Part shown: positions 21,317 through 44,599 of the stretch, piece after piece
Layout of the letters: each line of letters begins with the position of its first letter
Numbering within the stretch: position 1 is the stretch's first letter
Origin: a virus
Lineage: Duplodnaviria; Caudoviricetes
IMG/VR virus record: IMGVR_UViG_3300046170_000265
Coordinates: 1 to 57,403 of that record
Direction: 5' to 3' (one strand)
DNA length: 57,403 bases
Translations under genes and position numbers: made by a program
The notes under the pieces: generated by a model
Seen by the model: only the letters and a program-made list of their open reading frames with translations
Databases searched by the model: none
Told to the model about the DNA's origin: nothing

Positions 21317-22038
21317 AGTATGATCTCCTGTATTTCGTCATGCCAATCGGTCCAGCGCAGTATCCTGGCTAGCCTGGCTTGTTGAATTGCGTCGTCACGG
21401 GTCATTCCGGCTTTGATGAAAGCTTGCTCGACTAATGACCAAGCTGGCCTCGAGCCGAGTATGGTCTCAGCCTTTTTTGGGCCGATCCCAGGCACACCTT
21501 TGTATCCATCAACTGGATCACCGGTCAGAACCTGGGTAAAAAACGCCCTATCAGCATCTTCTTCGCTGATCTCTAAGGTTTCATTGGTCATTGGTCGATA
21601 TAACCGGCCTGGTATTGTCCTGAGATCCTTATCGTCTGATACCATGATGCATTTGCCCTGGTTGACTGGCATGGTCGCCAGTATTCCAAGGCAATCATCT
21701 GCTTCCAGGCGTGGTTTGCGGAATGTCTTGAAGTTGTCTTCAACCCAGTCGCAAAGGGCCACATAACCAACAGGTTTGCGTGTGCCTTTACGATTGGATT
21801 TATATGACGGGTCAACAACCTTGCGAAAGTTAGCCTTGTGATCAGATAGACAGCAGACGTAATCCTTTACGCCCAGCGTGTCTGTGATCTTGGTAATTTG
21901 CGTTTCGAAGAGGTTCTTGGCTTCTTTGAGATCGGTCCATAAGGACCAGATATCATCGCCCATGTCATATTCCTGCTCAGCTGCTGTGGCAGCTCGAAAC
22001 ATCAGGATGTCAGTGTCGAGGGCTAAGAACATCTTCAA
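21304..22038 (-). CDS. 5'-3' exonuclease (T7 gp6-like)
   Basis: YKSNRK, LEADD, SDDKD and GDPVDGYKGVPGIGPKKA motifs. Confidence 0.92.
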   Translation of the reverse strand: MKMFLALDTDILMFRAATAAEQEYDMGDDIWSLWTDLKEAKNLFETQITKITDTLGVKDYVCCLSDHKANFRKVVDPSYKSNRKGTRKPVGYVALCDWVEDNFKTFRKPRLEADDCLGILATMPVNQGKCIMVSDDKDLRTIPGRLYRPMTNETLEISEEDADRAFFTQVLTGDPVDGYKGVPGIGPKKAETILGSRPAWSLVEQAFIKAGMTRDDAIQQARLARILRWTDWHDEIQEIILWTP

Positions 22039-22360
22039 TCCCCTCCATGGCCGCTAGGCCGTCCTGGGTAATCATCCAGACATTGCCGTAAGTGCTTTCA
22101 CCGATTTTGGTTGAGATCAGGCCATCACTGGCACAGATCCCAATTTCAGTGGCTGCCATCCTGGCAAAGTCACTTTTGGTGGTAAATGGGCTTTGCCTGG
22201 CTTTTGCCAGGGTCGACCAGATAGCCATTAGGCCCTCTAAATCTTCATCAGTGGGTGTCTGCCCAAGTGGCTCCGACTGAGTATTCGGCGTCGATTGGGA
22301 TTGAGAAGTTGAAGTATCTCCCCGCTTCTTGCGCCATTCGTCTAGCGAGATTACCGACAT
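22010..22360 (-). CDS. 116-aa protein overprinted on the 3' end of the polymerase gene, starting MSVISLDEWRKKR
   Basis: AAAGGAGA RBS 8 nt before the ATG at 22360; motif, S/T/Q linker and folded-looking C-terminal domain. Confidence 0.65.
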   Translation of the reverse strand: MSVISLDEWRKKRGDTSTSQSQSTPNTQSEPLGQTPTDEDLEGLMAIWSTLAKARQSPFTTKSDFARMAATEIGICASDGLISTKIGESTYGNVWMITQDGLAAMEGIEDVLSPRH

Positions 22361-24011: not shown

Positions 24012-24433
24012 TAGCGGTTGTCGCCATTTCCACGCAATTGGTCTCGTCTGTCTCGATCCTGCAGCTTTTCTAGGTTCAGCTCAGCAATTTCTTCGAGCTG
24101 GTAACCAATGTCGTTTGCTACAGCTGTGACATACCAAAGCACGTCACCAAGCTCTTTTGCGATTTCGTGGCGCATCCTGGAACGCATCTCGATCATCGGT
24201 TCTTCCAGTGCAGTGTCATCGTGTTCACCGTCACGGAAGTATTTCTTCAGTTTTTCTGCGACTTCGCCGGCTTCGCCAACTAGACCAAGCACTGGATAAA
24301 CCAATGCACCTGGGTAGATGGCTGTTTGCATTGCCGATACGGCATAATCCTCGAAAGTCATGGGAAACGTATCCCAGTCTTCGAAATTATCGTTATCAGC
24401 ATCGAAATCATCGAATAGGTCACGCATGGTCAT
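24011..24433 (-). CDS. mazG: MazG-like nucleotide pyrophosphohydrolase
   Basis: GLVGEAGEVAEKLKK, KELGDVLWY and C-terminal GNGDNR. Confidence 0.9.
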   Translation of the reverse strand: MTMRDLFDDFDADNDNFEDWDTFPMTFEDYAVSAMQTAIYPGALVYPVLGLVGEAGEVAEKLKKYFRDGEHDDTALEEPMIEMRSRMRHEIAKELGDVLWYVTAVANDIGYQLEEIAELNLEKLQDRDRRDQLRGNGDNR

Positions 24434-26139
24434 GGTAATTCTCCTTGTGGTTTGTACTCAGGTGAAACCAATTGATCGGGTTCATCATCTGAGCCGAGTA
24501 GATGTGTAAGTTCTTCTTCAAGCAGTCGACCGCTATCCCTGTTGAAGACTAGAGTTCCGGCGTTGCTTGAGGTTTGTCCGGTAAAGCGATTTTTCAGGAC
24601 CGCTAGGTGTCGAATGTCGCTGTCTGGTTCGTCACGATCGACGTTGAGTGCAATGACAGCATCACTTAGCTGACCAAGGCTTGCCGATCCTCTGAGATGG
24701 TTCAACCTGACCGGCTGACCACCACTTTCATGGCCTGAGTTCCCTTCGGGGCGACGGACGTGCGACACCAGGATTAAACCAATGCCCAGCTCCTGGACTA
24801 ATGTCCGCAGCTTAGTCATGGCGTAATCAATCAGTTGCCGCTCGTTACCAAAGCCCCCTGCTCCCATTTGGGTGCAAAGGATTGAGATGTGATCCAATAC
24901 GATCCAACGGACACCCAAGGCTTTCACCATGTAGGTAATCCGTTGACAGATCAGATCGACGTCTGAGCTACCAAAATGGTCATAGAGGTAGACAGGATGC
25001 CGGCCATCACCGAACAAGTCGTCGAAGGCTGCAACGATCTCTTCATCAGTTGCCAGGCTTCGATCGATCGTAATGTTCTTGCTCATGTGTGTGCCAACCA
25101 GGCCAAGCAAGGTCCGCTTGTTGCTTTCTTCAAGCATAATCAAGCCAACCTGCTCACCGGATTGGTGCAGGTGATAGCAAATCTCTTTCACGAAAGTTGA
25201 TTTCCCGATCCCAGAGCCAGCAGCAATTGTGACCAGCTCATACGGTCTTAACCCGTGCAGAATGTCATTTAGCACCGAGTAAGGGTATGTGATGGATGAG
25301 GCTGCATCATCCACAGCAATTGCGCTTCTGAGATCGGTAGCAGCCACGATCCCGTCAGGCCGATAGTCACGGGCCTGAAAGATCGCCTGAATTACTTCTG
25401 CTGATTTACCTTGGACCAGGCACTCATTGGCGTCCTTGCAGGGTAAATATGCAATTTTGCATCTACCGACAGGTAGTGTTTCTGCGACAGCCAGGGCCGC
25501 ATTTTGGCCGCTACTGTCCATATCGAACATCAGGATCACTTCCTCGAAGCCGAGAACGTAATCCCAATTGTCTTTAATTGCTTTGACAGCCGATGGTGCG
25601 CCATTAGGCAGCGACACCACTGGCCATCTGTTGTTTTGGATCTGTGAGACGCTCAGGCAGTCAATTTCACCTTCTGTGATGACCAGCTTTTTTCCGCTGC
25701 GCCATAGGTGTGACCCAAACAACGTGCTTTCACGTTGGTTGCCAATGATTGAGAACCTTTTGTCTTTGGTCCTGAGCTTCTGGGCAACAGGTTTGCCATG
25801 CTTGTCTCGATAGACAGCAATCTGCGTCTCTTGCCCGTTGTGTTTACCAACCAGGTATCCAAACTTTTTGCAGGTCGCCTCAGTTAATCCTCGAGCTGGT
25901 ATCGCTTTTGGGATGCCCGAGAGTAAGACTTCTTGTTTCGTTTGACCTTGGTTCGGTACTGGTTGCGGTTTGTCGCCAACTGGCGAGCCACCGGATTTCT
26001 CACTGCCACTATAGGTGGTACAGGAGAAACAGAACGTATGTCCGTCATCAAATACTCCATTTGCGTCTGATGAGCCGCAAGCATCACAGCTGGTATGAGT
26101 TACGAACTGTGATTGGCTCTCCTTTGGTATTGCTTGCAT
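24430..26139 (-). CDS. Primase/helicase (T7 gp4-like)
   Basis: Zn finger CDAC..CFSC, TOPRIM TEGEIDC and FDMD, Walker A AGSGIGKS, LDH, LRGS, KNRFTG; AGGAGAG RBS before MQAIP. Confidence 0.95.
   Translation of the reverse strand: MQAIPKESQSQFVTHTSCDACGSSDANGVFDDGHTFCFSCTTYSGSEKSGGSPVGDKPQPVPNQGQTKQEVLLSGIPKAIPARGLTEATCKKFGYLVGKHNGQETQIAVYRDKHGKPVAQKLRTKDKRFSIIGNQRESTLFGSHLWRSGKKLVITEGEIDCLSVSQIQNNRWPVVSLPNGAPSAVKAIKDNWDYVLGFEEVILMFDMDSSGQNAALAVAETLPVGRCKIAYLPCKDANECLVQGKSAEVIQAIFQARDYRPDGIVAATDLRSAIAVDDAASSITYPYSVLNDILHGLRPYELVTIAAGSGIGKSTFVKEICYHLHQSGEQVGLIMLEESNKRTLLGLVGTHMSKNITIDRSLATDEEIVAAFDDLFGDGRHPVYLYDHFGSSDVDLICQRITYMVKALGVRWIVLDHISILCTQMGAGGFGNERQLIDYAMTKLRTLVQELGIGLILVSHVRRPEGNSGHESGGQPVRLNHLRGSASLGQLSDAVIALNVDRDEPDSDIRHLAVLKNRFTGQTSSNAGTLVFNRDSGRLLEEELTHLLGSDDEPDQLVSPEYKPQGELP
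24459..24476 (-). promoter_or_regulatory. Putative phage RNAP promoter upstream of mazG and the polymerase
   Basis: ATCAATTGGTTTCACCTG variant of the repeated motif. Confidence 0.6.
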
Positions 26140-26165
26140 TGCTGTCTCTCCTGTAATTGCTTGAA

Positions 26166-26378
26166 CTAGGCCAGGCTGTAACGTGTGTAACGCTGGCCTA
26201 GGTTGTCTTTCTTCCATTCACTGATGATCTCAAATCCAGCTTCACGCAGGTCAGCGATCCGTCGCGTAAGCGATCTGATCCGGTAAAGATCATTTGCTTC
26301 GACAAACGTGATACTGCCCACGTCAATCAAGTGGTTCAGGACTAGTTGGTATTGGGATTGCCCCATGTATTTCTTCAT
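26166..26378 (-). CDS. Small winged-HTH protein
   Basis: SITFVEA..LYRIRSLTRRIADLREAG pattern; start uncertain. Confidence 0.7.
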   Translation of the reverse strand: MKKYMGQSQYQLVLNHLIDVGSITFVEANDLYRIRSLTRRIADLREAGFEIISEWKKDNLGQRYTRYSLA

Positions 26379-26806
26379 GCGTCTTCTCCTTCTGTTAGCC
26401 ATTCGGTTGGGATTGATTTGTTCGCGTACTCAAACCCATGCTTGTCGCACCACTGGGCATATGTAGTTGGGCTGCCTTTGTAGAGACGGGCATTTTGGTT
26501 TGAGAACACGAAACGAATGTCGATTTCAGGGTGCTGATCACGGATAAGCAGATGCTTTTGTCGGTCGTCGACTAGCCAGCGGCCCTTGGTTTCGACATAA
26601 AAAAAGCCGCCTGGCTTAGGCAGCTTAAAATCTGGGCGATAGGTGGATGATCGCTCCGGCCAGAGATAACTGATCTTATCCTGTTCGTATTGAACTATAA
26701 GACCAGCGTCCTCGATTTGGCGGGAAACACTGTCTTCTAAGCCAGAGCGGTAGCCATTCTTGATGGCCCGTTTTCGTAGCTTAGAAATTGTATGCTTGAC
26801 CTCCAT
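26375..26806 (-). CDS. Endonuclease I / Holliday junction resolvase (T7 gp3-like); start uncertain
   Basis: YRSGLE, YRPDF, VETKG, HLLIRDQHPEIDIRFVFSN. Confidence 0.92.
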   Translation of the reverse strand: MEVKHTISKLRKRAIKNGYRSGLEDSVSRQIEDAGLIVQYEQDKISYLWPERSSTYRPDFKLPKPGGFFYVETKGRWLVDDRQKHLLIRDQHPEIDIRFVFSNQNARLYKGSPTTYAQWCDKHGFEYANKSIPTEWLTEGEDA

Positions 26807-27350
26807 CACCTTCTGCAGCTGGTTGATTGTCGTTAGCTGCTGATAGGTTGTCATTGGCGGCTACAAAGCCACCCTCTTCAGCTGCGAATGAAACACTTGA
26901 GGTTTCACCTTGAGACAGCTCAACGATCTGGACGCCAGCAAGTTGCAGTGAAACACCTTTGTTTCCACCTGCGACATAGGGGTAAATCGTGCCAGCGAGT
27001 TTCAATGTAGAGCCGCCGAAGATTGGCGGAACATTGTTTTCGCTGATCAGGTTGCCCTGGCTGTCCATGATCTTTGGTCTGAATTTCGATTTGGTAACGA
27101 TAATCAGCTGGCCTGTATCCTCATCCGTTTTGAACGGGAGGCGTACATTTTGCGCTTCTTTGGTGCCAAATTCGTTGTTTGCTGCTTCCTGGACCGCTTT
27201 GATCAGGTCCGCAGCATCAGCTTTGTCCAGCTTCAAGTTGACCTTGAACTGGCCGTTGCTGTCGAATTGAAAGTCTGCCTTGTTTAACCAAGGGTACATT
27301 GCGATGCCTTTAGCGGTGCTAAAGGTCAGTTTCTTCTTCGTGTTTGCCAT
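26781..27350 (-). CDS. ssb: Single-stranded DNA-binding protein (T7 gp2.5-like)
   Basis: GIAMYPWL, GGSTLK, GVSLQLAGVQI, acidic tail ending in Phe; AAGGAG RBS. Confidence 0.85.
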   Translation of the reverse strand: MANTKKKLTFSTAKGIAMYPWLNKADFQFDSNGQFKVNLKLDKADAADLIKAVQEAANNEFGTKEAQNVRLPFKTDEDTGQLIIVTKSKFRPKIMDSQGNLISENNVPPIFGGSTLKLAGTIYPYVAGGNKGVSLQLAGVQIVELSQGETSSVSFAAEEGGFVAANDNLSAANDNQPAAEGDGGQAYNF

Positions 27351-27513
27351 TGTGTGAATAATCTCCTTTTTCAGTGGCTTTAAATGTTGGCTCACCTAAA
27401 TATTCCAGCGATAAGCCGAGCTGGTCTGCCTGTGCGAGCAGGTCTAGTGGTATTGGGTCGCCGCGCTGGCGATATATCTGTGCCAGCCCAAGCAACTCCT
27501 CGATGGGATGCAT
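27319..27513 (-). CDS. Hypothetical protein (64 aa)
   Basis: AAAGGA RBS before MHPIEELL, just downstream of a phage promoter. Confidence 0.55.
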   Translation of the reverse strand: MHPIEELLGLAQIYRQRGDPIPLDLLAQADQLGLSLEYLGEPTFKATEKGDYSHNGKHEEETDL

Positions 27514-27547
27514 TAAGTTTCCTTTTTCCTGTTGATAGGGTTGTCTG

Positions 27548-27565
27548 TAGGTGAAACCAATTAAT
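27548..27565 (-). promoter_or_regulatory. Putative phage RNAP promoter
   Basis: ATTAATTGGTTTCACCTA, repeated intergenic motif shaped like the T7 promoter TAATACGACTCACTATA. Confidence 0.8.
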
Positions 27566-27579
27566 GGCTCCAAACGCAC

Positions 27580-27604
27580 AAAAGGCGGCCCGAGAGCCGC
27601 CCTT
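27580..27604 (-). terminator. Intrinsic terminator after the RNAP gene, between two phage promoters
   Basis: GGCGGC/GCCGCC stem followed by TTTTGTGCGTTT on the minus strand. Confidence 0.7.
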
Positions 27605-27609
27605 GTACA

Positions 27610-27627
27610 TAGGTGAAACCAATTAAA
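27610..27627 (-). promoter_or_regulatory. Putative phage RNAP promoter
   Basis: TTTAATTGGTTTCACCTA copy of the motif. Confidence 0.8.
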
Positions 27628-27638
27628 TCGGTGTCACG

Positions 27639-30518
27639 TCATGTCATGAAGTAGTCGCTTTCGCGAACCTTCGTAATGTCCAGATCGCCTTTGGCCGGTA
27701 CTTCTGGCCATTTCACTATCCGGAGTTTCAAGGCATCCAGTTCAGCATTAAGACCCTCGAGCAACCCTTCATCCTCTTCATGTTCAATTAGTTCTTGAAG
27801 GTTGTGAATTTGCTCCTTGATCTCGAGGCTGTCTGGATCTGGGTGTCTTGCTTTGCACTGCTCGAGAAGGTCGCTGTATAGACAATATCCGTCATACATC
27901 TCGACCATTGCGTCTCTGGCAGCATCCCGCATCACCTCAGCATTACCACAGGTAGTGGCATAGCTGTCGTGAACGACCATAAGATCAGTAACCCCATGAT
28001 CAGCGCAGCGTAAGGCAGTTAACATCAACAATGTGCTATCCATCGAATGGATTATGTTGGGACTTACTGCACTGACGCTTTTATTAGGATCAATGCCGGG
28101 CATTGTTTTGGTGTAGCTCATCAAGCCCCGAGATTTGATAGCCTCGATATCATGGCTGTAAAGAAACACCCGACGCCTTGCCGACTTATTGTTCCGATAG
28201 TATTGATGCACCGGAAAGTTGAGTTTTGGCGTTTTGAAAGTGAGATGTAGATCGGCGTCAACCATGATCTTGGCGCAAGCTTGGAAAAATTCCATGCCAT
28301 CTTTGGCTGACTTGATCACACTTTCGATTGCGTCTTGACTGATACCAGCTAAGTAATGAGATGCCTGGTAACCGCCATCTTCAGGGAATGGATGCTTCTC
28401 ACGTTCACCAGCGCGAACCTCAAGATCCATTTCGTCCATCCAGTCTTTTTTGAACTGCTGGGCGAAGCCATACTTGCGGCTCGAATAAGCCCAAACCATG
28501 GCCGGTCTCTTGATGACACTCCGGTTTAGGTACTTTTTGCCTTTTGGATTTTCATCAGTCGGCTCGACCTCATAGGACAACAGTACTCTTGCAATGTCGA
28601 TTTCTTGATCACGCTTCAATCTTCTGTGTGAAGCAGTCTTTTTATAATCACGCTTTGCCTTGCGTTTCCTTTTCTCGAGAGCGTCCATTTCATCTAGATC
28701 GTCAGCTTTTTCAGCCATGATCCTTTGATATGCTTTGTGCGCTTCCCGATCATTGTCATTCGCAGGGTCAAGCTCTTGATTTGCAAGTTTCTCAGCCTTG
28801 TCAGCTTCGATCATTTCTTCTGCAACCACGAGACAAGCCTTGTACAGGTCGTTAGGCTTATCTTCTGAGCCTTTGACCAGGTTAACTAGCAATCCGTCAT
28901 CTTCGTTCAAGCTAGCAGCAGCGTAATGCTGGATGCCGGATTGAGTTGCATCGACGGCAACAGGTAAACCAGACCAATGGTCCTTGCCTTCTTGCTGGGC
29001 AACCATGTATTCAGCCAAGTCACGGCAAGCAGCTAAGAACTGGAATGGATCGTCAGCCTTGCTCCAGAAATCAAATGACGCCTTGTAATCGATGCCGACG
29101 TTGACCACTTCTTCAAGGTTTTCTTCCACCCATTTGATCCGAGTGTCGTAGCTCTCTTTATCCAAGCCATAGGTGTTTGAAACCTGCAGAAGGATCCATG
29201 CTGAATTTTCCTCTGTTACCTTCGTCTTGTTGGCAAATAGAAACATTGCCCTCAAGAAATCTGTATTGTGGTGGCCAAAATCGCTGACGTGATAGACACG
29301 CCCTCGCCGGTCCCAATTGTGTGGCATCCAGAACTGATCATATTGAGCAAGCTTCCTAGCTTCATTCAATGTACGGCGGATCTTTGACCGGTTGGCCCGA
29401 GCTTGCCTGTTGACGGCTTTGCATCGAGTTAGATTTCGCATATGAGCGATTTGATCATCTTTATCGAGGTCATCGTAGTTCACGCCTTCGTCGAGCTTTG
29501 GAACCTCAACAGTTTTGGTGTTTGGAAACTTTTTGACCAAACGGCCCTTGCCCGTCTTGCGGACCCAATCGACAGCATCGACCACAAAGTCATTAACGGT
29601 GTAAGGCACCTGTTGCAGGAGGTTTAAAGCCTCAACAGCCTTGTCTAAGCTGCCATCTCGCAATCCTGCATCAAGATCCTTACGCTGCTCTGGGCCAGCG
29701 TGTTTGACCATTGGCGTCATGATTGCCAGGCGAGGTGTTATGTATGGACCGATTTGATCCAAACCCCATGGTCTTGGCATTACATTCATTGGTGCAAGGT
29801 ATGGCGACATACGGTCAAGATCAGCAAACTTTTCTTCGATCTCAGCTTCTACCTCGGGACGCAGGATCATGAATTTTTCTGGGAAGTCTTTCGTCTCATC
29901 CGCTAGATCTTTGTGCGTCATGAACACGTCTTTACAAGCAGCTTCGACCACTGACAGTAAAAATGAGCCGACAGTCTGTTCTAAACCGCCATCATCATCT
30001 TCCCACTTCTCGAAGGTAAAGCCTCTTTTGGCTGCCTGACGCAGGACGTAATCTTGACGTTTTTCAACCTTGTCACTTTGCAACGTGGCGTTTTGTGCCA
30101 GCCGCTTTGCTAGGCGGTCACCAGCACGATTTGCTTGAAGTCTGTGTTCAAAATCCAGACACTTGATCGCCTGGCCGACCCTGTTTGCCAGCGTATTGTA
30201 AGTCCATTCTTTCTCATGGCCATCAAGACACTGCATGAAAGCGACATAAGCGACATCAATCTGTGGTAGTTCCGCAAGTGGCTCAAGCCATTTGGCGTTT
30301 TGACCGCGGTTAGCACGGGTTTGCTCAGACTGGCTTACAATCTCATCCATGATGGGCTGAATGTATTGTTCGATTAGTTTGACAGATACAACACTGGCAG
30401 ACATATCAAGGCTCTGGCGGCGGTCTCTAGAGCGAGCTTCGCCCCGATCAACTATGTTGACCTGCTCATGCTCCAAAGCATCTTTTCTGGTCCTGGGTGT
30501 ATTGTCGTTTGCTACCAT
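27639..30518 (-). CDS. Single-subunit T7-like RNA polymerase (959 aa)
   Basis: DRRGRVY, PFQFLA, motif A DATQSGIQHY, motif B RSVIKRPAMVWAY, PNIIHSMDS, motif C VHDSY. Confidence 0.96.
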   Translation of the reverse strand: MVANDNTPRTRKDALEHEQVNIVDRGEARSRDRRQSLDMSASVVSVKLIEQYIQPIMDEIVSQSEQTRANRGQNAKWLEPLAELPQIDVAYVAFMQCLDGHEKEWTYNTLANRVGQAIKCLDFEHRLQANRAGDRLAKRLAQNATLQSDKVEKRQDYVLRQAAKRGFTFEKWEDDDGGLEQTVGSFLLSVVEAACKDVFMTHKDLADETKDFPEKFMILRPEVEAEIEEKFADLDRMSPYLAPMNVMPRPWGLDQIGPYITPRLAIMTPMVKHAGPEQRKDLDAGLRDGSLDKAVEALNLLQQVPYTVNDFVVDAVDWVRKTGKGRLVKKFPNTKTVEVPKLDEGVNYDDLDKDDQIAHMRNLTRCKAVNRQARANRSKIRRTLNEARKLAQYDQFWMPHNWDRRGRVYHVSDFGHHNTDFLRAMFLFANKTKVTEENSAWILLQVSNTYGLDKESYDTRIKWVEENLEEVVNVGIDYKASFDFWSKADDPFQFLAACRDLAEYMVAQQEGKDHWSGLPVAVDATQSGIQHYAAASLNEDDGLLVNLVKGSEDKPNDLYKACLVVAEEMIEADKAEKLANQELDPANDNDREAHKAYQRIMAEKADDLDEMDALEKRKRKAKRDYKKTASHRRLKRDQEIDIARVLLSYEVEPTDENPKGKKYLNRSVIKRPAMVWAYSSRKYGFAQQFKKDWMDEMDLEVRAGEREKHPFPEDGGYQASHYLAGISQDAIESVIKSAKDGMEFFQACAKIMVDADLHLTFKTPKLNFPVHQYYRNNKSARRRVFLYSHDIEAIKSRGLMSYTKTMPGIDPNKSVSAVSPNIIHSMDSTLLMLTALRCADHGVTDLMVVHDSYATTCGNAEVMRDAARDAMVEMYDGYCLYSDLLEQCKARHPDPDSLEIKEQIHNLQELIEHEEDEGLLEGLNAELDALKLRIVKWPEVPAKGDLDITKVRESDYFMT

Positions 30519-30552
30519 TAAACTCTCCTATTGTGACTAAAGTACTAAAGAT

Positions 30553-30577
30553 ATAGGGGGGTGAATACCCCCCATAG
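30553..30577 (-). terminator. GC-rich hairpin just upstream of the RNAP gene (terminator or attenuator)
   Basis: GGGGGGT-GAAT-ACCCCCC stem with only a weak U tract. Confidence 0.45.
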
Positions 30578-30585
30578 ACACAAGC

Positions 30586-30768
30586 CTAAGCAGCTTGGGT
30601 CTTGTTGTTGTCGTTAGCTGCATTAGCCAACAGGTCGCTAAGGTTTACCCGAGGTGTCTGGTGCTTCCATGGTGTTACTCCGGTTAGCACCTGATGCATC
30701 ATTTCTTCAGCATCTTGGTTGTAGTTTTGGACCTGGGTACCTTTGTTGTTGTCATTTAACATCATCAT
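30586..30768 (-). CDS. Small early protein ending in ssrA-tag-like AANDNNKTQAA
   Basis: AGGAG RBS; lies downstream of the phage promoter at 30811-30828. Confidence 0.7.
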   Translation of the reverse strand: MMMLNDNNKGTQVQNYNQDAEEMMHQVLTGVTPWKHQTPRVNLSDLLANAANDNNKTQAA

Positions 30769-30810
30769 TCTCCTACCTTGGTTGAACTAAAGACCGGAAC
30801 TGGCCGTATA

Positions 30811-30828
30811 AAGGTGAAACCAATTAAT
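30811..30828 (-). promoter_or_regulatory. Putative phage RNAP promoter upstream of the RNAP gene
   Basis: ATTAATTGGTTTCACCTT followed by TATA. Confidence 0.8.
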
Positions 30829-30863
30829 TCACTAAGGAAATCAATGGCTTCACCTTCTGGTCT

Positions 30864-31202
30864 TTAGGCTGCTTTTGACCAGCCTGTCAGGACCGTGTGG
30901 GGCAAGGTCGTCGTATGAGATGCTCGCCAATCGAAATTCAGATGATCCATCCGAGCGAATTGACGTCTGGCATGGATGTTTAACAATGGCTCGACGTCTG
31001 GGAACCGCTGAACCTGAAGAGCCATCCAGGCGCATAGCAACGCAACGCCGTCAAACTCCATGCGTTCGAATACGGCATCGCCTTCGCCAAAGCGGATGAA
31101 GACGGCATATTCGATTTCGTCCTGTGTGAACGAAAATTCATAGGGCCCATCGACACCAAGGTGATGAGTTACAAAATCGATAAATGTTTTTTCGGTTTTC
31201 AT
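30864..31202 (-). CDS. Hypothetical early protein (112 aa, ends KAA)
   Basis: AAAGGAG RBS; downstream of the promoter at 31246-31263. Confidence 0.7.
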   Translation of the reverse strand: MKTEKTFIDFVTHHLGVDGPYEFSFTQDEIEYAVFIRFGEGDAVFERMEFDGVALLCAWMALQVQRFPDVEPLLNIHARRQFARMDHLNFDWRASHTTTLPHTVLTGWSKAA

Positions 31203-31245
31203 AGTAAATGCTCCTTTTCACCAGAACCCGGGATGGGTTCGTATA

Positions 31246-31263
31246 TAGGTGAAACCAATTAAT
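31246..31263 (-). promoter_or_regulatory. Putative phage RNAP promoter at the head of the early region
   Basis: ATTAATTGGTTTCACCTA followed by TATA and a GAACCC/GGGTTC hairpin. Confidence 0.8.
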
Positions 31264-31420
31264 CTGCTGATGTGGATGTCCTGTGCCGGACAGCAGCGCA
31301 CTAGTGTGTGCGACTTCTTTGGATCGACGCGGTCGTGCCTTGTCGATGGAGCGTTAAATGTTCAATGACGGAGCATCGAGCATTTGCCCAAACTAGAACA
31401 AAAGCAGAACGCCGTCTACC

Positions 31421-31452
31421 AAAAAAAGGGCCACCGAGGTCATCGGCAGCCC
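31421..31452 (-). terminator. Intrinsic terminator after the integrase gene
   Basis: GGGCTGCCGA/TCGGTGGCCC stem with G-U pairs, followed by T7 on the minus strand. Confidence 0.75.
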
Positions 31453-31474
31453 ATCAGATTGGTTTGCTTGGATA

Positions 31475-32446
31475 TTATATTGACAGTGCGGACACAGCCC
31501 CTGCCCGTGCAGATGCGTCGCCATGATAGTACTTCTTTGTCGTAGCGACGCTGGAATGACCCAGCTGCTCAGCCACTGTCAATGAGTTGACCTTGGCCCG
31601 TGCCATATTGGTTGCAGCATAATGCCTTGTAGCGTGAAACTTGAACCAGGTGTCGTTGCCATGGCCCATAAAGTCCTTCACATCGTTCCAGCGGTCATAA
31701 AAGCGTCTGTGGGTGAACTCACGGCCAATGTTAGCCCGAAGCCACTGAGCGGCTTCCCATGCGCCATCAGCGACCAGGCTTACCCAGCGACCTTTGCTGG
31801 TCTTTGTAACTTGTGCCGGAAGCCAAACTTCCTTGGCATCATCGTTCCATTCAATAATGTCTAACGGTAACGCTACGATTTCGCCCTGCCTCATACCTGT
31901 AAGACAACCCAGCTTAATCATGTATGACACCCACTGGTCGCCATTGCGATCATGCAGCTCGATCATCTGACGTACCTGGTCTTTGGTGAAGGCACGGGTA
32001 TTTGGCTCAGCTTGCTTTAACAAGCCTACCCTTGGACGATCAGTCATGATCTGCAGTTCCTCGACTGCGAACCGGAAGCAAGCTGATACAGCAGACAGAT
32101 GCCGGTTGATTGTCGAATCAGTCATATCTGTATGTTGCTGGAGATAATTGCGATATGCGATACAGTCAGCAGCCGTGATCTGGTTCATCGGCTTCATGCC
32201 GTAGTCTTTGAAATCTGCGAATCGGGACACCTGCATCATACAGTCACGACGGTGCTTGAAGGCTCCCCACATATCACGCTGGTGCTTGTGAGCGAACATA
32301 AGGATATTAGAGCGGCTGCAGTCGAATTTGGTGTCGTCAATAGCAGCTGGAGCTGGCTCAGGGCGACTGTCGATTACATTGTTGGTACTGATGATTTCAT
32401 CTGAAGTGGGGTTAGAAAAGTCATCGAAAAGGTTAAATTGGTCCAT
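31475..32446 (-). CDS. int: Tyrosine integrase
   Basis: Catalytic residues TGMRQGE, TKTSK, FHATRH, LGHS and TKKYY; adjacent to the att site. Confidence 0.95.
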   Translation of the reverse strand: MDQFNLFDDFSNPTSDEIISTNNVIDSRPEPAPAAIDDTKFDCSRSNILMFAHKHQRDMWGAFKHRRDCMMQVSRFADFKDYGMKPMNQITAADCIAYRNYLQQHTDMTDSTINRHLSAVSACFRFAVEELQIMTDRPRVGLLKQAEPNTRAFTKDQVRQMIELHDRNGDQWVSYMIKLGCLTGMRQGEIVALPLDIIEWNDDAKEVWLPAQVTKTSKGRWVSLVADGAWEAAQWLRANIGREFTHRRFYDRWNDVKDFMGHGNDTWFKFHATRHYAATNMARAKVNSLTVAEQLGHSSVATTKKYYHGDASARAGAVSALSI

Positions 32447-32523
32447 CTTACGGTCTCCTTAGAGTTACATAAGATGAAACGGGGGGTGTGTCGCTTGACT
32501 ACCGCCGATTTCTAGCAGTCATT

Positions 32524-32575
32524 CAAGCGACTGTTAATCGCTTGGCCGGCGGTTCGAATCCGTCCCGGGGAGCCA
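32524..32575 (+). pseudogene. 3' half of tRNA-Asn(GTT), att core region
   Basis: Anticodon arm AGCGA-CTGTTAA-TCGCT, T arm GGCGG-TTCGAAT-CCGTC, acceptor strand CCGGGGA-G-CCA; no D arm or 5' acceptor strand upstream. Confidence 0.9.
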
Positions 32576-32587
32576 ACTCTCTAAGTT

Positions 32588-32600
32588 TATCAACAACTTA
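32588..32600 (+). promoter_or_regulatory. IHF binding site next to att
   Basis: TATCAACAACTTA matches the consensus WATCAANNNNTTR exactly. Confidence 0.65.
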
Positions 32601-32764
32601 GATGACATATCCCAAAACTTTAAATTCTTGCCTTTGGTAAAGCGATTGTTGCCCTCAACCTTCGCTTGTCCCCTTATATATAAGCTTTTCCTAGCTTAAT
32701 TACAACTGCTGGGAAACCGGTTCTGCTGGGATACTGTTGGTACATCAGGGGTTCTGCAAAGCCG

Positions 32765-32830
32765 TGTATGTCGCTTGACTGAGGAAAGCGATTGCCAGTC
32801 GCTTGGCCTAAAAGGGTAAAGCGACATACA
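32765..32830. repeat. Nested inverted repeats containing an att-core-like site
   Basis: TGTATGTCGCTT (32765-76) and AAGCGACATACA (32819-30) enclose AAGCGA-TTGCCAG-TCGCTT (32786-32804). Confidence 0.8.
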
Positions 32831-32854
32831 AAAAGGGCTATTTTTCACGTTTTC

Positions 32855-32883
32855 TTGTCTCGTAAAGATACTTTGGTTAGACT
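32855..32883 (+). promoter_or_regulatory. Putative sigma70 promoter of the 774-aa gene
   Basis: TTGTCT-17 nt-TAGACT, 36 nt before the ATG. Confidence 0.5.
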
Positions 32884-32919
32884 TTTGAATAACGCGATAA
32901 AGACACCAAAAGAGCTGCC

Positions 32920-35244
32920 ATGAAAATCCCACAACAAATGACTAAGCGACAAAAAGACAGGCTTACGGTTCTGAATTCAAAAGGCATCACCGCTCTTCAA
33001 ATAGCCAAAATACTTGAGCTTCCTTTAGTGTTGGTTGAGGAAGAAATTGAAACGCGAAAGCAAAATCTTTTGAAGAAAAGATGGACGAAAGACCAGTCAA
33101 ATGAAGCGTTAGACTTATATGTCAAAAACGTGTCTCTAACTGAAATTGCAAACCTAACTGGTAAAACTAGAGTGCAGATAGCAAGGCACTTCAGAGATAT
33201 TAGGGATGACTGGGTTAACGAAGGCACAAAATACAACTATTTGAATGTTGATTTGAGAGTGAAATTAGCAGCTAAAATTGAACGAAGGGAAAACACTGAC
33301 AAGCGGCCAATAAGAATGGCTAGAGCGAGGCTCCCTGACAAAATACGGAGCAAGCAGCTAGCTGGTCTCGCAGAAACACTCGCTTATAAAGAAAATGTGC
33401 TGCTTGATGAATGGTGGCAGTTTGGCGTCCTAAACAGCGTTGAGGATGACCGCCTTAGCCTGACTGCAATCTCGAAGGACAACAACAGGGTTACATTAAT
33501 CAAGAAGTACACGCCGAACTGGAAAGAAGTTCTGCTGAAACTGAAAGGCTTGATGGGTGAATTTGTTTCTGTCCGTGTAATTCAAAATTACTTACCAGTT
33601 GTTAATGCCGGAGCAGGAACTAAGAAAGATGTTGTCTACGAACCACGGATGGTTGACGTAACGGCATCTGAAGGCATCATGAGCCTCGCAAAGTCCTTCC
33701 CAAGTGACACCCGAAACCAGTCTTTCATTGGAAGGTATAAGTGGTTGCGCTTTGGCGAGTTTGAAGCCAAGTCAACCAGCGAACACATTCTCATTGGAAA
33801 TGTTGATGGTCGGGTCATGGCTTTCCGAAAGGGCAGCATCAACAGCGTTCTAGAGCAACGTCTCACGGACACTTTAGATATGGCTGAAGGTCAATCTATC
33901 TTGGTTTGTGTAGACCAAAAAAATCCAAAGCCTGACGGTGTTTTAAGCGTGTTTGTTGACGCACACATCGAAGAGGAAGGCATTGAGACTTACAACGAAG
34001 ACTACAATACAATTGTAGAAACGATTGCTCGCACAAAGGATGAAGCTGCTGAGGCTAACTTGACAGTGCAAAAAAAGCACAAAGAGATACAACAGCAGCT
34101 ACTAGAGAAAGAAGTGCAACATACAAAACAGATTACAGAACTGAAGTTTGAGTTCGAGCGTGAAACACAAGAAGTACAAGCACAGATAAAGGAACAAACA
34201 GGTGCTTTTAGACGCTTAGAAGCAGAATTACAAAGAGAGCTGCTAGATTACAATGAACAAGAGAGGTTTCTGCGCGACACAAAAGAAGGGCTTCAACAGT
34301 ACAAGGTAGGTGTTCTAGCAGCGGCTGCAGACCAAACAGGGTCGGGCAGCACTTTTCAAATGAAAGGGCTGAAGGTAATACAAGGCGAAGAGGCTCAGTG
34401 GCATGATTTCAATGAGGCAATCAAGGCATTTGAGGGGAGTGGAGGTGAAGAAGCACAAGAGCTTTACAAAGAAATCCAAGACCTAAAAAGGGAAGTGTTA
34501 AAAGCACATAAGAATGCAGCTGCTACTTCAAATACCTCTGAAGAAGAGGAAGGGTTTGAGCCACCAGAACCAGATTACATCCTCAACCCTGAAGCAGACC
34601 TCTCGCTTTTTGATGAAAAGCAACCAGACCCGGACAGCCCAATGATGGCAATGATGCGAGAGATGATGGCAGAAGTGCAGAGTTTAAAAAGCTCGCAACA
34701 AAGTTTTATTGAAGCATCAGCAATGACAGAGTTTGAAGTTCAAGAGTTACGTGACTATTCCCGTGCAGAAGACGAAGAGTTGAGTACAGACAACGCAAAA
34801 ACAGAAGCTGAACACAAAGACATACTGGAGAATGTGAGAGAGTTTGTCGGAAAGCCACCAAGGCAACTAAAAGTGTACGTTGGTCACGCTCGGAATACAC
34901 TATGTCTTCGCGCCGGTATCGACCTTACAAGGGAAAAACCTGACAACAGGATTGATGTTCAGTTTACCAAACACATTGGTAAATCAACGTTTCTGGTTCA
35001 CTTCCCCAAATACAATCATGACGCAATGCTATCCATTGTTCGAGACTCGAAAGACAAAAACGATTTTGCAGTAAAATCATGCCTTCATCTTGATGGTGAA
35101 AGGTGGAAAGAAATTGAACAGGAAGTCACAGGACAAGGTGGTAAGCGTCTGACAGGCAAAAAGCCCAAACAGTGGTTAGCATATCGCAAACAGATAATTG
35201 CAAAGCTAGAAGCACCTAAAGCGAAAAAAAAGGCCAGAGGATAA
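32920..35244 (+). CDS. Uncharacterised 774-aa accessory protein: tandem HTH, duplicated domain, coiled coil, C-terminal domain
   Basis: Only long plus-strand ORF in the window, AT-rich, between att and the endolysin. Confidence 0.85.
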   Translation: MKIPQQMTKRQKDRLTVLNSKGITALQIAKILELPLVLVEEEIETRKQNLLKKRWTKDQSNEALDLYVKNVSLTEIANLTGKTRVQIARHFRDIRDDWVNEGTKYNYLNVDLRVKLAAKIERRENTDKRPIRMARARLPDKIRSKQLAGLAETLAYKENVLLDEWWQFGVLNSVEDDRLSLTAISKDNNRVTLIKKYTPNWKEVLLKLKGLMGEFVSVRVIQNYLPVVNAGAGTKKDVVYEPRMVDVTASEGIMSLAKSFPSDTRNQSFIGRYKWLRFGEFEAKSTSEHILIGNVDGRVMAFRKGSINSVLEQRLTDTLDMAEGQSILVCVDQKNPKPDGVLSVFVDAHIEEEGIETYNEDYNTIVETIARTKDEAAEANLTVQKKHKEIQQQLLEKEVQHTKQITELKFEFERETQEVQAQIKEQTGAFRRLEAELQRELLDYNEQERFLRDTKEGLQQYKVGVLAAAADQTGSGSTFQMKGLKVIQGEEAQWHDFNEAIKAFEGSGGEEAQELYKEIQDLKREVLKAHKNAAATSNTSEEEEGFEPPEPDYILNPEADLSLFDEKQPDPDSPMMAMMREMMAEVQSLKSSQQSFIEASAMTEFEVQELRDYSRAEDEELSTDNAKTEAEHKDILENVREFVGKPPRQLKVYVGHARNTLCLRAGIDLTREKPDNRIDVQFTKHIGKSTFLVHFPKYNHDAMLSIVRDSKDKNDFAVKSCLHLDGERWKEIEQEVTGQGGKRLTGKKPKQWLAYRKQIIAKLEAPKAKKKARG

Positions 35245-35248
35245 ACCT

Positions 35249-35758: not shown

Positions 35759-35946
35759 GCCTCTGCTCCGTTAATAATTGAGCATTTGTATTCGACCGAC
35801 TGCCAATTACCATCCTGTGGAAAATCTTCGTGGAGAGCCTTCATCTGGATGCATTCAGGTTTGTCTTCAAACCACGCGATAGTCTGAGATGCACACTTAT
35901 CGTTTAGGCAAACAGTGAGTAATAAAGTCCATATAATCTGGGTCAT
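35755..35946 (-). CDS. Small exported Cys-containing protein in the lysis cassette
   Basis: Hydrophobic N-terminus, four Cys, coupled to the endolysin gene. Confidence 0.6.
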   Translation of the reverse strand: MTQIIWTLLLTVCLNDKCASQTIAWFEDKPECIQMKALHEDFPQDGNWQSVEYKCSIINGAEA

Positions 35947-35948
35947 TT

Positions 35949-44321: not shown

Positions 44322-44599
44322 GGTGCTATTCTCCACTGTTATCGTTGGCCTCAGCTTCACGCTTGGTCAGTATTTCGTCACGAATTGCCACACGCTGCTT
44401 TAAGCGTATGGACAACTCCGACAAGACCTCTGTAGTGAAAATAAGACTGTTCTCTTTGGTCGGCTTCTTCAGGTTTCGAGTTAACAAATCCCTGAAATGC
44501 CTCTTCTACTAGACTGTTCACAATGCTATTGAACGTATTGTTTTTCAATAACTCTTCAGCCTGATTGCCTTGGTCATACAAGGCATCTTCGTCTTGCAT
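44314..44599 (-). CDS. Small conserved head-module protein B; end approximate, frameshifted
   Basis: AAGGAGAG RBS; homolog of 2084-2371. Confidence 0.7.

What the first reader, a model, noticed from the sequence alone, without database searches (positions are those of the whole stretch)
26826..30621. Genome-encoded ssrA (tmRNA) tag mimics in RNA polymerase, SSB and a small early protein
Seen: the peptide (A)ANDN occurs five times in three early proteins. The sites are the RNAP N-terminus MVANDN (30501-30512), an RNAP insertion DPANDND (28752-28763), twice in the SSB tail AANDNLSAANDN (26826-26861), and the end of the 60-aa ORF, AANDNNKTQAA-stop (30586-30621). The codons differ between copies, so the peptide rather than the DNA is conserved. 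ORFs 30864-31202 and 17335-18312 also end in -AA. Known: alphaproteobacterial ssrA tags begin AANDN and end AA (Caulobacter AANDNFAEEFAVAA); the N-terminal part binds the SspB adaptor and the terminal AA engages ClpX. Inference: the 60-aa protein is a complete tag mimic, either a substrate or an SspB decoy, and RNAP and SSB carry SspB-docking sites, so host ClpXP load could set their stability.
Basis: partly seen in the sequence, partly recalled or inferred. Interest (0 to 1): 0.9.

Follow-up and report, generated by a model that had tools for sequence, protein, structure and literature searches.

The report
Phage proteins copy host ssrA-tag head
A marine T7-like phage and its uncultured relatives carry the five-residue peptide Ala-Ala-Asn-Asp-Asn, identical to the start of the alphaproteobacterial "destroy-me" (ssrA) tag, on the floppy ends of their DNA-binding protein, RNA polymerase and other early proteins, which probably plugs these proteins into the host SspB/ClpX machinery, though no binding has been measured.

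Summary
The window has five ANDN in three early proteins, against 0.34 expected, each copy with different codons.

- **SSB tail:** 98 of 109 SSB homologues have an intact C-terminus. Of these, 69 carry AANDN, 2 another ANDN and 19 another NDN in the disordered tail.
- **Other proteins:** in 29 related loci whose SSB tail has NDN, ANDN occurs 20 more times in 6 other protein families (0.78 expected). In 46 loci without it, ANDN occurs 0 times in 148,708 aa.
- **Tag match:** five alphaproteobacterial tmRNA tags read here start ANDN (4) or VNDN (1).
- **Known host:** Rhizobium phage 16-3 has 14 ANDN against 0.12 expected. T7 has none.
- **Same pathway:** ORF 22010-22360 starts MSVISLDEWRKK, resembling the SspB C-terminal ends SVVSLDSFRKKN and SVVSLDAFRKKS.

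A functional short linear motif is well supported. SspB docking is likely but unproven, and the host is unknown. The "complete tag mimic" reading fits only a narrow lineage: 2 of 28 family representatives end in AA. This scan noted the same motif on other DNA, with 29 notes in at least 26 genomes. I found nothing in print.

The parts
26781..27395 (-). gp2.5-like single-stranded-DNA-binding protein (204 aa by longest ORF; relatives start near residue 16)
   Evidence: PF21265 6.6e-12 and phrog_112 2.5e-32. In the AF2 model the OB core has pLDDT above 90 to residue 159, and residues 183-203 are below 50.
26826..26861 (-). Two tandem AANDN motifs in the SSB tail (AANDNLSAANDN), after the conserved GGFVA and before the conserved C-terminal YNF
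   Evidence: N181 and D182 are invariant and N183, V178 and A179 are at least 90% conserved in 38 aligned homologues. Of 98 intact homologues, 69 have AANDN and 18 have two or more NDN.
27639..30518 (-). T7-type single-subunit RNA polymerase (959 aa)
   Evidence: PF00940 7e-82 and phrog_414 1.6e-148.
30501..30518 (-). RNAP N-terminus MVANDN
   Evidence: Relatives at 93%, 70%, 59% and 35% identity start MAVNDNTP, MAVNDNTP, MAANDNTP and MTGDNDNNNP. More distant RNAPs (about 33% identical) in IMG/VR loci do not have it.
28752..28763 (-). RNAP internal ANDN (DPANDNDREA), at the start of a lineage-specific insertion (about residues 585-663)
   Evidence: PANDNDREA is kept in L001 (75% identical) and in P0145, P0146 and P0147. 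BLAST alignments to distant RNAPs break at about residues 560-584 and resume at 664.
30586..30768 (-). 60-aa early protein with NDN at both ends (MMMLNDNNKGTQ... and ...AANDNNKTQAA-stop)
   Evidence: Homologues P0001-P0003 keep (A/V)ANDN and the terminal AA. A family profile found 28 small representatives, 20 of them with NDN in the last 16 residues. A phage-promoter-like element lies upstream at 30806-30827 and a GC hairpin follows the stop.
24386..24394 (-). NDN in the N-terminal segment of the MazG-like protein (DFDADNDNFED)
   Evidence: L001 has the same DADNDNFEDW. PF03819 8.5e-11.
22010..22360 (-). 116-aa protein overlapping the DNA polymerase 3' end. It has an N-terminal MSVISLDEWRKK, an S/T/Q-rich linker and a winged-helix-like domain. 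The N-terminus resembles the C-terminal (ClpX-tethering) segment of alphaproteobacterial SspB.
   Evidence: The S. meliloti SspB ends ...SVVSLDSFRKKN and the M. aquaticum frame next to its tmRNA ends ...SVVSLDAFRKKS. Homologues were found in 39 loci, and 37 of them keep the N-terminal motif. AF2 gave pLDDT 78; the best Foldseek hits are MarR/PadR-like at E 0.019 or weaker.
32513..32577 (+). 3' two-thirds of a tRNA-Asn(GUU) next to the integrase: the att site of phage A
   Evidence: Rfam tRNA 23.6 bits, model positions 8-63, anticodon loop CUGUUAA. The sequence ends ...GGGGAGCCA. All 6 PLSDB matches are Alphaproteobacteria, the best 89.6% identical.
31475..32446 (-). Tyrosine integrase
   Evidence: PF00589 5.6e-19 and phrog_1 2.6e-42.
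27543..27626 (-). Two phage-promoter-like elements (TTAATTGGTTTCACCT...) ahead of the 86-aa ORF and SSB. Two more lie at 30806-30827 and 31241-31262.
   Evidence: 4 matches with up to 3 mismatches, against 0 in 100 shuffles.

Best explanation
AANDN (core NDN, usually preceded by A-A or A-S) is a short linear docking motif. This lineage of temperate marine T7-like phages displays it on disordered ends and linkers of its early and replication proteins: the SSB tail, the RNAP N-terminus and insertion, a small pre-RNAP protein, and in relatives the endonuclease I tail, the primase N-terminal region and a small post-primase protein.

The motif is letter for letter the first five residues that trans-translation puts on stalled proteins in Alphaproteobacteria (Ala from the charged tmRNA, then ANDN...). 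I infer that it docks in the tag-binding groove of the host adaptor SspB, which is itself tethered to the N-domain of ClpX.

Shown here:
- the motif exists, is conserved, sits in disorder and recurs in unrelated proteins only in the lineage whose SSB has it;
- it equals the alphaproteobacterial tag head;
- the same enrichment occurs in phage 16-3;
- the same genome carries a copy of the SspB C-terminal segment on another protein.

Inferred:
- the host is an alphaproteobacterium with SspB;
- the motif binds SspB;
- the consequence. Most sites lack a C-terminal AA degron. I therefore think the usual effect is tethering to, or titration of, SspB/ClpX: adaptor capture, co-localisation or remodelling. 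Outright degradation is likely only for the few proteins that also end in A or AA, such as the 60-aa protein of this window.
For: 1. Conservation. Of 109 SSB homologues, 98 have an intact C-terminus; 69 carry AANDN, 2 another ANDN, 19 another NDN and 8 none. Position -2 is A in 101 of 108 motif instances and position +1 is free. Second copies far from GGFVA are again AANDN.
2. Disorder. AF2 pLDDT falls from above 90 (to residue 159) to about 70 (161-180) and below 50 (183-203).
3. Lineage-wide recurrence. In 29 loci with NDN in the SSB tail, non-SSB proteins have 20 ANDN (15 distinct contexts, 6 families) in 72,276 aa, against 0.78 expected and 0-4 for each of the 11 other permutations. In 46 loci without it, there are 0 in 148,708 aa. 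The sites are terminal: endonuclease I ...EGANDNEPE-stop, primase MKMANDNSEF, and AANDN at residues 14-24 of a small protein.
4. RNAP. The N-terminal NDN is kept at 93%, 70%, 59% and 35% identity.
5. Small-protein family. 20 of 28 representatives have NDN in the last 16 residues.
6. Tag identity. ARAGORN tags of five alphaproteobacterial tmRNAs start ANDN (4) or VNDN (1). In the Table 1 passage of PMC12493166 the E. coli, H. influenzae and N. meningitidis tags start ANDE, the P. aeruginosa tag starts ANDD, and only the A. tumefaciens tag starts ANDN. SspB binds the first seven tag residues and ends in a ClpX-binding segment (PMC9963277, passage).
7. Known host. Phage 16-3 has 14 ANDN against 0.12 expected, while the other 11 permutations total 1. 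Several read ANDN-x7-9-A-stop. T7 has 0 ANDN, ANDE and ANDD.
8. Second mimic of the same pathway in the same genome: MSVISLDEWRKK against SspB ends SVVSLDSFRKKN and SVVSLDAFRKKS, conserved in 37 of 39 loci with a homologue.
9. Host hints. The att tRNA-Asn fragment matches only alphaproteobacterial replicons in PLSDB, 6 of 6. The nearest cultured primases are those of Roseobacter phages, at 48%.
Against: - No binding or stability datum exists.
- The host is unknown. The PLSDB tRNA evidence is weak: the best match is 89.6% over 48 nt, and the collection is biased. Ralstonia phages are nearly as close as roseophages by primase (46.6% against 48.6%).
- Four cultured T7-like phages of alphaproteobacterial hosts have no ANDN in the parts examined: CRP-113 (16.8 kb), CRP-114 (19.5 kb), Mesorhizobium AM-2008 (8.1 kb) and Pelagibacter HTVC200P (16.1 kb). 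The motif is therefore not a general adaptation to such hosts.
- Most sites here are N-terminal, internal or followed by YNF, unlike a C-terminal tag. Only 2 of 28 small-protein representatives end in AA.
- The first A of the first SSB copy belongs to the GGFVA element, which T7 gp2.5 also has as NGYVA.
- The motif sits on replication proteins, sometimes next to sequences that look like sliding-clamp-binding motifs (QLDLF; QMTLPF). This fits a replisome partner just as well.
- By a crude measure, families containing the 4-mer over expectation, ANDN ranks 71st of 73,333 and not first.
- An unchecked scan note reports the same motif in a Pseudomonas phage, whose host tag starts ANDD (PMC12493166).
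Confidence: 0.5

Rival explanations
1. AANDN is a docking motif for a replisome partner unrelated to SspB. Candidates are the phage DNA polymerase or primase-helicase, or a host replication hub such as the sliding clamp or clamp loader. On this reading the likeness to the ssrA head is a coincidence.
For: - The carriers are SSB, primase, endonuclease I, MazG-like protein, RNAP and small early proteins.
- In T7-type systems, tails of replication proteins share motifs that bind the polymerase (established knowledge of gp2.5 and gp4, recalled). The conserved C-terminal YNF here fits that pattern.
- Three members of the small-protein family follow NDN with PVQLDLF or PVQLELF, and one ends FDF. The post-primase family often begins Q(M/L/T)xLPF about 10 residues before AANDN. 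These resemble clamp-binding motifs (recalled consensus QL[SD]LF).
- Cultured phages of alphaproteobacterial hosts lack ANDN.
Against: - No phage gene family in the fetched loci is specific to the motif-bearing lineage. The only enriched one (9 against 2 loci) itself carries the motif.
- Phage 16-3, an unrelated siphovirus with different replication genes, has 14 ANDN. These include sites in its portal, tape-measure, protease and methyltransferase ORFs, and several are tag-length C-terminal tails ending in A. A shared host receptor fits this better than a phage-specific replisome contact.
- A 5-of-5 identity to the host-type tag head, plus the SspB-tail copy in the same genome, would both have to be coincidences.
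Confidence: 0.25
2. The 60-aa protein is a complete ssrA-tag mimic (head plus C-terminal AA) that ClpXP degrades or that acts as an SspB/ClpX decoy. RNAP and SSB half-lives are set by ClpXP load.
For: - The tail AANDNNKTQAA has 11 residues and shares AANDNN and the final AA with (A)ANDNNAKEYALAA of A. tumefaciens (PMC12493166 Table 1 passage).
- ANDN and the final AA are kept in three homologues while neighbouring residues change: AANDNCKTEAA and VANDNNETQAA.
- The protein has NDN at both ends, as suits a dimeric adaptor.
- In 16-3, five ORFs end ANDN-x7-9-A.
Against: - In the wider family only 2 of 28 small representatives end in AA and 7 end in A. Others end NDNNKGE, NDNRREGK or exactly at NDN.
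- SSB ends YNF and RNAP ends FMT, so neither has the ClpX-engaging half.
- The excess of -AA ORFs is 3 against 0.61 expected, with no conservation data.
Confidence: 0.15
3. There is no specific function. ANDN is a compositional or low-complexity by-product of Asn/Asp-rich disordered tails, seen because the reader looked for it.
For: - In the window alone another 4-mer (KAVE) is equally over-represented.
- Tails are rich in A, N, D, E and G.
- The first AA overlaps the conserved GGFVA.
Against: - The 11 other orderings of A, N, D, N occur 0-4 times where ANDN occurs 20 times, and in 16-3 they total 1 against 14.
- N181 and D182 are invariant and N183 is at least 90% conserved, within a tail whose other positions and length vary freely.
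- There is strict co-occurrence with the SSB motif: 20 against 0.
Confidence: 0.05

Closest known systems
The alphaproteobacterial tmRNA (ssrA) tag read by SspB and ClpXP
   Same: The first five residues are identical: A + ANDN. Tags read here are ANDNYAEARLAA, ANDNRAPMAMAA, ANDNRAPVALAA and ANDNFAPVAVAA. The Caulobacter tag is AANDNFAEEFAVAA (PMC9393093). In E. coli the head is the part that SspB binds (PMC9963277, passage). The 60-aa protein and several 16-3 proteins also copy the tag's length and terminal Ala.
   Different: - The motif is encoded in the ORF, not added by tmRNA. No tmRNA is present in the window.
- Most copies are N-terminal, internal or far from the C-terminus and lack the xAA-COOH degron.
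- Copies are often doubled.
The acidic C-terminal tail of T7 gp2.5 and of bacterial SSBs, a protein-interaction hub
   Same: Same protein family and position: a disordered tail after the OB fold that ends in an aromatic residue (YNF here, GDF in T7). The element before it is shared (GGFVA here, NGYVA in T7).
   Different: T7 has no NDN at all. Here an extra, separately conserved motif lies between GGFVA and the acidic end. The same motif appears on proteins that are not SSBs.
Phage interference with host AAA+ proteases and adaptors
   Same: Phages are known to touch this pathway. Pseudomonas phage pf16 encodes an SspB homologue (PMC5587285, passage). ClpXP substrates include the phage lambda O and MuA proteins (PMC8138137, passage).
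   Different: Those cases involve a whole adaptor gene or single natural substrates. They do not involve a tag-head peptide spread over many proteins of a phage. My full-text searches found no description of that.
Short-linear-motif mimicry by viruses (known mainly from eukaryotic viruses; recalled)
   Same: A 4-5-residue host motif copied into disordered regions of several unrelated viral proteins, evolving by convergence.
   Different: Bacterial host, and the motif copied is normally made by trans-translation rather than by a host gene.

Membership tests
ssrA (tmRNA) degradation tag, alphaproteobacterial type | Head sequence A-A-N-D-N | tested here: met
   The window has AANDN three times, VANDN once and PANDN once. 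Alphaproteobacterial tags read by ARAGORN start ANDN (4 of 5) or VNDN (1 of 5).
ssrA (tmRNA) degradation tag, alphaproteobacterial type | C-terminal hydrophobic-Ala-Ala-COOH that ClpX engages | tested here: not met
   Met only by the 60-aa ORF (…TQAA) and its three close homologues. SSB ends YNF and RNAP ends FMT. Only 2 of 28 small-family representatives end in AA.
ssrA (tmRNA) degradation tag, alphaproteobacterial type | Added co-translationally from a tmRNA reading frame | tested here: not met
   The motifs lie inside ordinary ORFs. ARAGORN and Rfam (RF00023, RF01849, and an E-value scan of 26000-36000) find no tmRNA in the window.
ssrA (tmRNA) degradation tag, alphaproteobacterial type | Bound by SspB | not testable with these tools
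   This needs a binding assay with the host's SspB. The host is unknown.
Short linear motif (SLiM) | Lies in intrinsically disordered sequence | tested here: met
   In the SSB model pLDDT is below 50 for 183-203 and about 70 for 161-180. The other sites are within about 25 residues of a terminus or in a lineage-specific insertion.
Short linear motif (SLiM) | Conserved while flanks and spacing vary | tested here: met
   N181 and D182 are invariant and N183 is at least 90% conserved, in a tail of variable length. The +1 position takes 17 different residues.
Short linear motif (SLiM) | Recurs in unrelated proteins (convergent gain) | tested here: met
   7 blast families in the related loci. Outside SSB there are 6 families and 15 distinct contexts. 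13 different ORFs carry it in phage 16-3.
gp2.5-like SSB (PF21265 / phrog_112) | OB-fold core and a flexible tail ending in an aromatic residue | tested here: met
SspB C-terminal ClpX-binding (XB) segment, alphaproteobacterial form (for ORF 22010-22360) | Sequence like ...VVSLDxFRKK at the end of a disordered linker | tested here: met
   By eye, SVISLDEWRKK against SVVSLDSFRKK (S. meliloti SspB, PF04386 1.9e-49) has 8 of 11 identical residues plus V/I and F/W. The M. aquaticum frame reads SVVSLDAFRKK. An S/T/Q-rich linker follows, with pLDDT below 50 at residues 15-30. That this segment is the ClpX-binding one is inferred from the SspB architecture described in PMC9963277.
SspB adaptor (PF04386) | SspB substrate-binding domain | tested here: not met
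   ORF 22010-22360 has no Pfam hit. Its folded domain looks winged-helix-like, with MarR/PadR hits at E 0.019 or weaker. The motif is at the N-terminus, not the C-terminus. It is therefore not an SspB.

The most novel reading that the evidence does not exclude
The phage runs a two-part takeover of the host ClpX adaptor system. AANDN heads on SSB, RNAP, primase, endonuclease I and small early proteins dock onto the dimeric SspB. A conserved winged-helix protein carrying SspB's own ClpX-tethering peptide occupies the ClpX N-domain.

Some small proteins join the AANDN head to a sliding-clamp-binding-like peptide (QLDLF). They could act as natural 'degraders' or bridges that link the host clamp to SspB-ClpXP.

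Tag-head mimicry would then be a general, convergently evolved strategy of phages of Alphaproteobacteria, from marine T7-like podoviruses to rhizobial 16-3-like siphoviruses.
Probability: 0.15. Interest if true: 0.9.

Novelty: new variant of a known kind. Interest (0 to 1): 0.72.

Why it matters
If the motif binds SspB, it is bacterial-virus short-linear-motif mimicry of a quality-control tag. A phage would write the adaptor-binding half of the host's trans-translation tag into its own early proteome.

- **New layer of control:** this would link phage replication and transcription proteins to the host ClpX system through turnover, sequestration of the adaptor, or co-localisation.
- **Easy test:** peptides of 10-15 residues, purified SspB and ClpXP, and NDN-to-AAA mutants would suffice.
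- **Host prediction:** the motif could serve as a sequence marker for uncultured marine phages, since tags with an ANDN head were seen here only in Alphaproteobacteria.
- **Tools:** natural bivalent SspB ligands would be of interest for degron engineering.

The comparative data give a clean target set: about 90 SSB tails and a family of small proteins of roughly 60 aa.

Tried and rejected
- **tmRNA remnant (rejected).** I asked whether the 60-aa ORF's end is really a tmRNA gene or fragment near the att site. ARAGORN, RF00023, RF01849 and an Rfam E-value scan of 26000-36000 found no tmRNA. The att fragment is tRNA-Asn.
- **Sixth ANDN (rejected).** The site at 44338-44349 lies in a 53-aa frame that overlaps two longer ORFs.
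- **Host through GTDB (led nowhere).** The one genome-contig scan, with RNAP, gave only two 33-residue matches in Acidimicrobiales MAGs (L002, L003). I did not use them.
- **Cultured close relatives (none).** The best RNAP identity is about 27% and the best SSB about 35%. The SSB tail peptide finds nothing in the phage collection.
- **A phage-encoded receptor specific to the motif lineage (none found).**. ORF 22010-22360 occurs in loci with and without the motif, so it is not a co-varying receptor.
- **Complex prediction.** E. coli SspB residues 1-120 with SSB tail residues 160-204 gave no verdict: score 0.20, mark 0.32, controls not run. This is neither support nor evidence against. E. coli SspB is a stand-in from another host.
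- **Papers not held.** Chien et al. 2007 and Lessner et al. 2007, which define alphaproteobacterial SspB, and Chowdhury et al. 2010 on ClpX N-domain peptides were not held. I saw only their titles in reference lists. What I say about which tag residues the alphaproteobacterial SspB contacts is therefore inference from the E. coli statement in PMC9963277. Supplements were not consulted.
- **Scan notes.** Notes on other genomes were read as leads only. I checked the idea myself on phage 16-3.
- **Rows dropped.** In one search, 11 of 109 SSB homologues without an intact ...[YHAW][NDT]F end (fragments or frameshifted tails) were left out. In one search, six loci without a called SSB (L006, L009, L011, L031, L032, L037) were left out, although three of them carry ANDN sites listed. 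L002 and L003 were excluded from all family counts. In one search, 4 of 32 profile hits longer than 90 aa were left out of the counts. My gene calls are greedy longest-ORF calls, not a gene finder.

Full report
**What the window is.** It is an IMG/VR virus record of 57,403 bp. Positions 1-32,600 hold a temperate T7-like phage on the minus strand. In order, its genes are:

- integrase (31475-32446);
- two small ORFs;
- a single-subunit RNA polymerase (27639-30518);
- a gp2.5-like SSB (26781-27395);
- endonuclease I and an HTH protein;
- primase-helicase, MazG and family-A DNA polymerase;
- 5'-3' exonuclease, class II RNR and ThyX;
- structural genes.

Next to the integrase lies the 3' two-thirds of a tRNA-Asn(GUU), the att site. 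Positions 32,920-57,403 hold a second, structural-and-lysis-only phage module with paralogous genes. Four copies of a phage-promoter-like 22-mer precede the small early ORFs and the SSB.

**The observation.** All five ANDN sites are real and in frame, and each uses different codons. In the window's proteome ANDN occurs 5 times against 0.34 expected. The window alone is not decisive, because KAVE is equally over-represented and dispersed. The core NDN occurs 10 times (3.44 expected), always in genes between 17335 and 30768. These include the N-terminus of the 60-aa protein (MMMLNDNNKG) and the MazG N-terminal segment.

**SSB relatives.** A search of the protein collection found 109 SSB homologues. 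Of these, 98 have an intact C-terminus: 69 carry AANDN, 2 another ANDN, 19 another NDN (SNDN, DNDN and others) and 8 none. The 8 without it mostly have near-variants such as AANDD. Eighteen have two or more copies. In a 38-sequence alignment N181 and D182 are invariant and N183 is at least 90% conserved, while the rest of the tail varies in length and sequence. The AF2 model puts the motif at the start of the disordered tail. The preceding GGFVA is older: T7 gp2.5 has NGYVA. More distant SSBs in this phage group follow it with acidic and aromatic residues instead.

**Co-occurrence across loci.** I fetched 80 IMG/VR loci around SSB homologues, called ORFs and grouped them into blast families.

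| Loci | Non-SSB protein | ANDN observed | Expected | Each other permutation |
|---|---|---|---|---|
| 29 with NDN in the SSB tail (window included) | 72,276 aa | 20 (15 contexts, 6 families) | 0.78 | 0-4 |
| 46 without NDN in the SSB tail | 148,708 aa | 0 | 1.29 | 0-6 |

The extra sites are at termini:

- endonuclease I tails (...EGANDNEPE-stop);
- the primase N-terminal region (MKMANDNSEF; GPANDNGPEP);
- residues 14-24 of a small post-primase protein (AANDNEAKW and others).

**RNAP relatives.** The N-terminus is MAVNDN, MAVNDN, MAANDN and MTGDNDNNN at 93%, 70%, 59% and 35% identity. The internal PANDNDREA is kept in the three closest relatives and in L001. RNAPs of other loci, about 33% identical, lack it.

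**The 60-aa protein.** It belongs to a family found with a profile search: 32 hits, 28 of them small. Twenty of the 28 have NDN in the last 16 residues and 10 of these have ANDN. Only 2 end in AA and 7 end in A.

**What the motif resembles.** I read five alphaproteobacterial tmRNA genes with ARAGORN:

| Organism | Tag |
|---|---|
| S. meliloti | ANDNYAEARLAA |
| Pseudorhodobacter | ANDNRAPMAMAA |
| Paracoccus | ANDNRAPVALAA |
| Methylobacterium | ANDNFAPVAVAA |
| Bosea (plasmid copy) | VNDNNAGYALAA |

Papers give Caulobacter AANDNFAEEFAVAA (PMC9393093, passage) and A. tumefaciens ANDNNAKEYALAA. In the same table passage the gamma- and betaproteobacterial tags start ANDE or ANDD (PMC12493166, Table 1). 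With the Ala that the charged tmRNA contributes, the alphaproteobacterial head is AANDN, which is the phage consensus. In E. coli, SspB binds the first seven tag residues and ends in a short ClpX-binding segment (PMC9963277, passage).

**Independent support.**

- *A phage of a known host.* Rhizobium phage 16-3 is, from recall, a phage of S. meliloti; the record names no host. It has 14 ANDN in about 19,100 aa against 0.12 expected, while the 11 other permutations total 1. Several are tag-length C-terminal tails ending in Ala, for example ANDNQEDEAEAA-stop. T7 has none.
- *A second mimic of the same pathway.* The S. meliloti SspB (PF04386, 1.9e-49), encoded next to the tmRNA gene, ends ...SVVSLDSFRKKN. 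The Methylobacterium frame next to its tmRNA ends ...SVVSLDAFRKKS. The window's ORF 22010-22360 begins MSVISLDEWRKK, followed by a disordered S/T/Q linker and a winged-helix-like domain. This N-terminus is the best-conserved part of a family found in 39 loci. The same phage therefore copies both ends of the SspB relay, the peptide SspB binds and the peptide by which SspB holds ClpX. This also points to an alphaproteobacterial host.
- *Host hints.* The att tRNA fragment matches only alphaproteobacterial replicons in PLSDB, 6 of 6, though weakly. The nearest cultured primases are those of roseophages.

**Against, or limiting.**

- Nothing has been measured and the host is not known.
- Four cultured T7-like phages of alphaproteobacterial hosts lack the motif in the regions examined.
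- Most sites lack the ClpX-engaging C-terminal AA.
- The motif sits on replication proteins, sometimes beside clamp-binding-like peptides, so a replisome partner is a live rival.
- The complex prediction with E. coli SspB gave no verdict and counts for nothing either way.

**Verdict.**

- A functional short linear motif: about 0.9.
- Its receptor is the host SspB-type adaptor: about 0.5.
- A different replisome partner: about 0.25.
- The strong 'complete degron or decoy' reading for the 60-aa protein: about 0.15, and only for its narrow lineage.
- Chance or composition: about 0.05.

The scan has noted the same motif before on other DNA, with 29 notes in at least 26 genomes, mostly rhizobial 16-3-like prophages. 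This window adds three things: an uncultured marine T7-like lineage, deep conservation in one protein tail, and the SspB-tail copy. Three full-text searches found no published description.

Noticed in passing
window 22010-22360 (-): A conserved 116-aa ORF overlaps the DNA polymerase 3' end. It starts MSVISLDEWRKK, which resembles the C-terminal ClpX-tethering segment of alphaproteobacterial SspB. An S/T/Q linker and a winged-helix-like domain follow. Homologues occur in 39 related loci. It could be a phage adaptor or a blocker of the ClpX N-domain.
   Followed up: partly
P0165, P0168, P0169, P0161 (family of window 30586-30768); family-12 proteins in L011, L021, L026, L007: Some small early proteins combine NDN with peptides that look like sliding-clamp-binding motifs: PVQLDLF or PVQLELF after NDN, and Q(M/L/T)xLP(F/L) at the N-terminus about 10 residues before AANDN. 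One ends in an SSB-like FDF. The consensus is recalled, not tested.
   Followed up: no
window 32920-57403: A second phage-like module holds only structural, terminase and lysis genes, with paralogues of phage A genes (for example 43689-44360 against 1015-1737, and 47038-48240 against 4428-6005). It has no replication genes and no NDN. It could be a tandem element or an assembly join; I did not resolve this.
   Followed up: no
window 32513-32577 (+): The att site is the 3' part of a tRNA-Asn(GUU) with an encoded CCA. The nearest PLSDB matches are all alphaproteobacterial replicons (Sinorhizobium 89.6%).
   Followed up: partly
window 27543-27564, 27605-27626, 30806-30827, 31241-31262 (-): Four copies of a 22-nt phage-promoter-like element, TTAATTGGTTTCACCT(A/T)..., against 0 in 100 shuffles. 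Two of them lie upstream of the RNAP gene itself.
   Followed up: partly
window 26781-26854: The longest endonuclease I ORF (26375-26854) overlaps the SSB tail by 74 nt, including the AANDN-coding stretch, in another frame. The real endonuclease start is probably an internal Met further downstream.
   Followed up: no
L086/L087 (S. meliloti CP090106.1) and L090 (M. aquaticum): In both replicons sspB lies directly downstream of the two-piece tmRNA gene. CP090106.1 is labelled a plasmid (pSymB) in PLSDB but is 3.7 Mb and carries tmRNA, sspB and tRNA-Asn.
   Followed up: no
L091 (Bosea sp. RAC05 plasmid pBSY19_1): A 709-kb plasmid carries a tmRNA whose tag starts VNDN rather than ANDN. The RNAP N-termini of two relatives of this phage read MAVNDN.
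   Followed up: no
window 28560-28765 (RNAP residues about 585-663): A lineage-specific, highly charged insertion in the RNAP (…ANDNDREAHKAYQRIMAEKADDLDEMDALEKRKRKAKRDYKK…) is absent from alignments to distant RNAPs.
   Followed up: no
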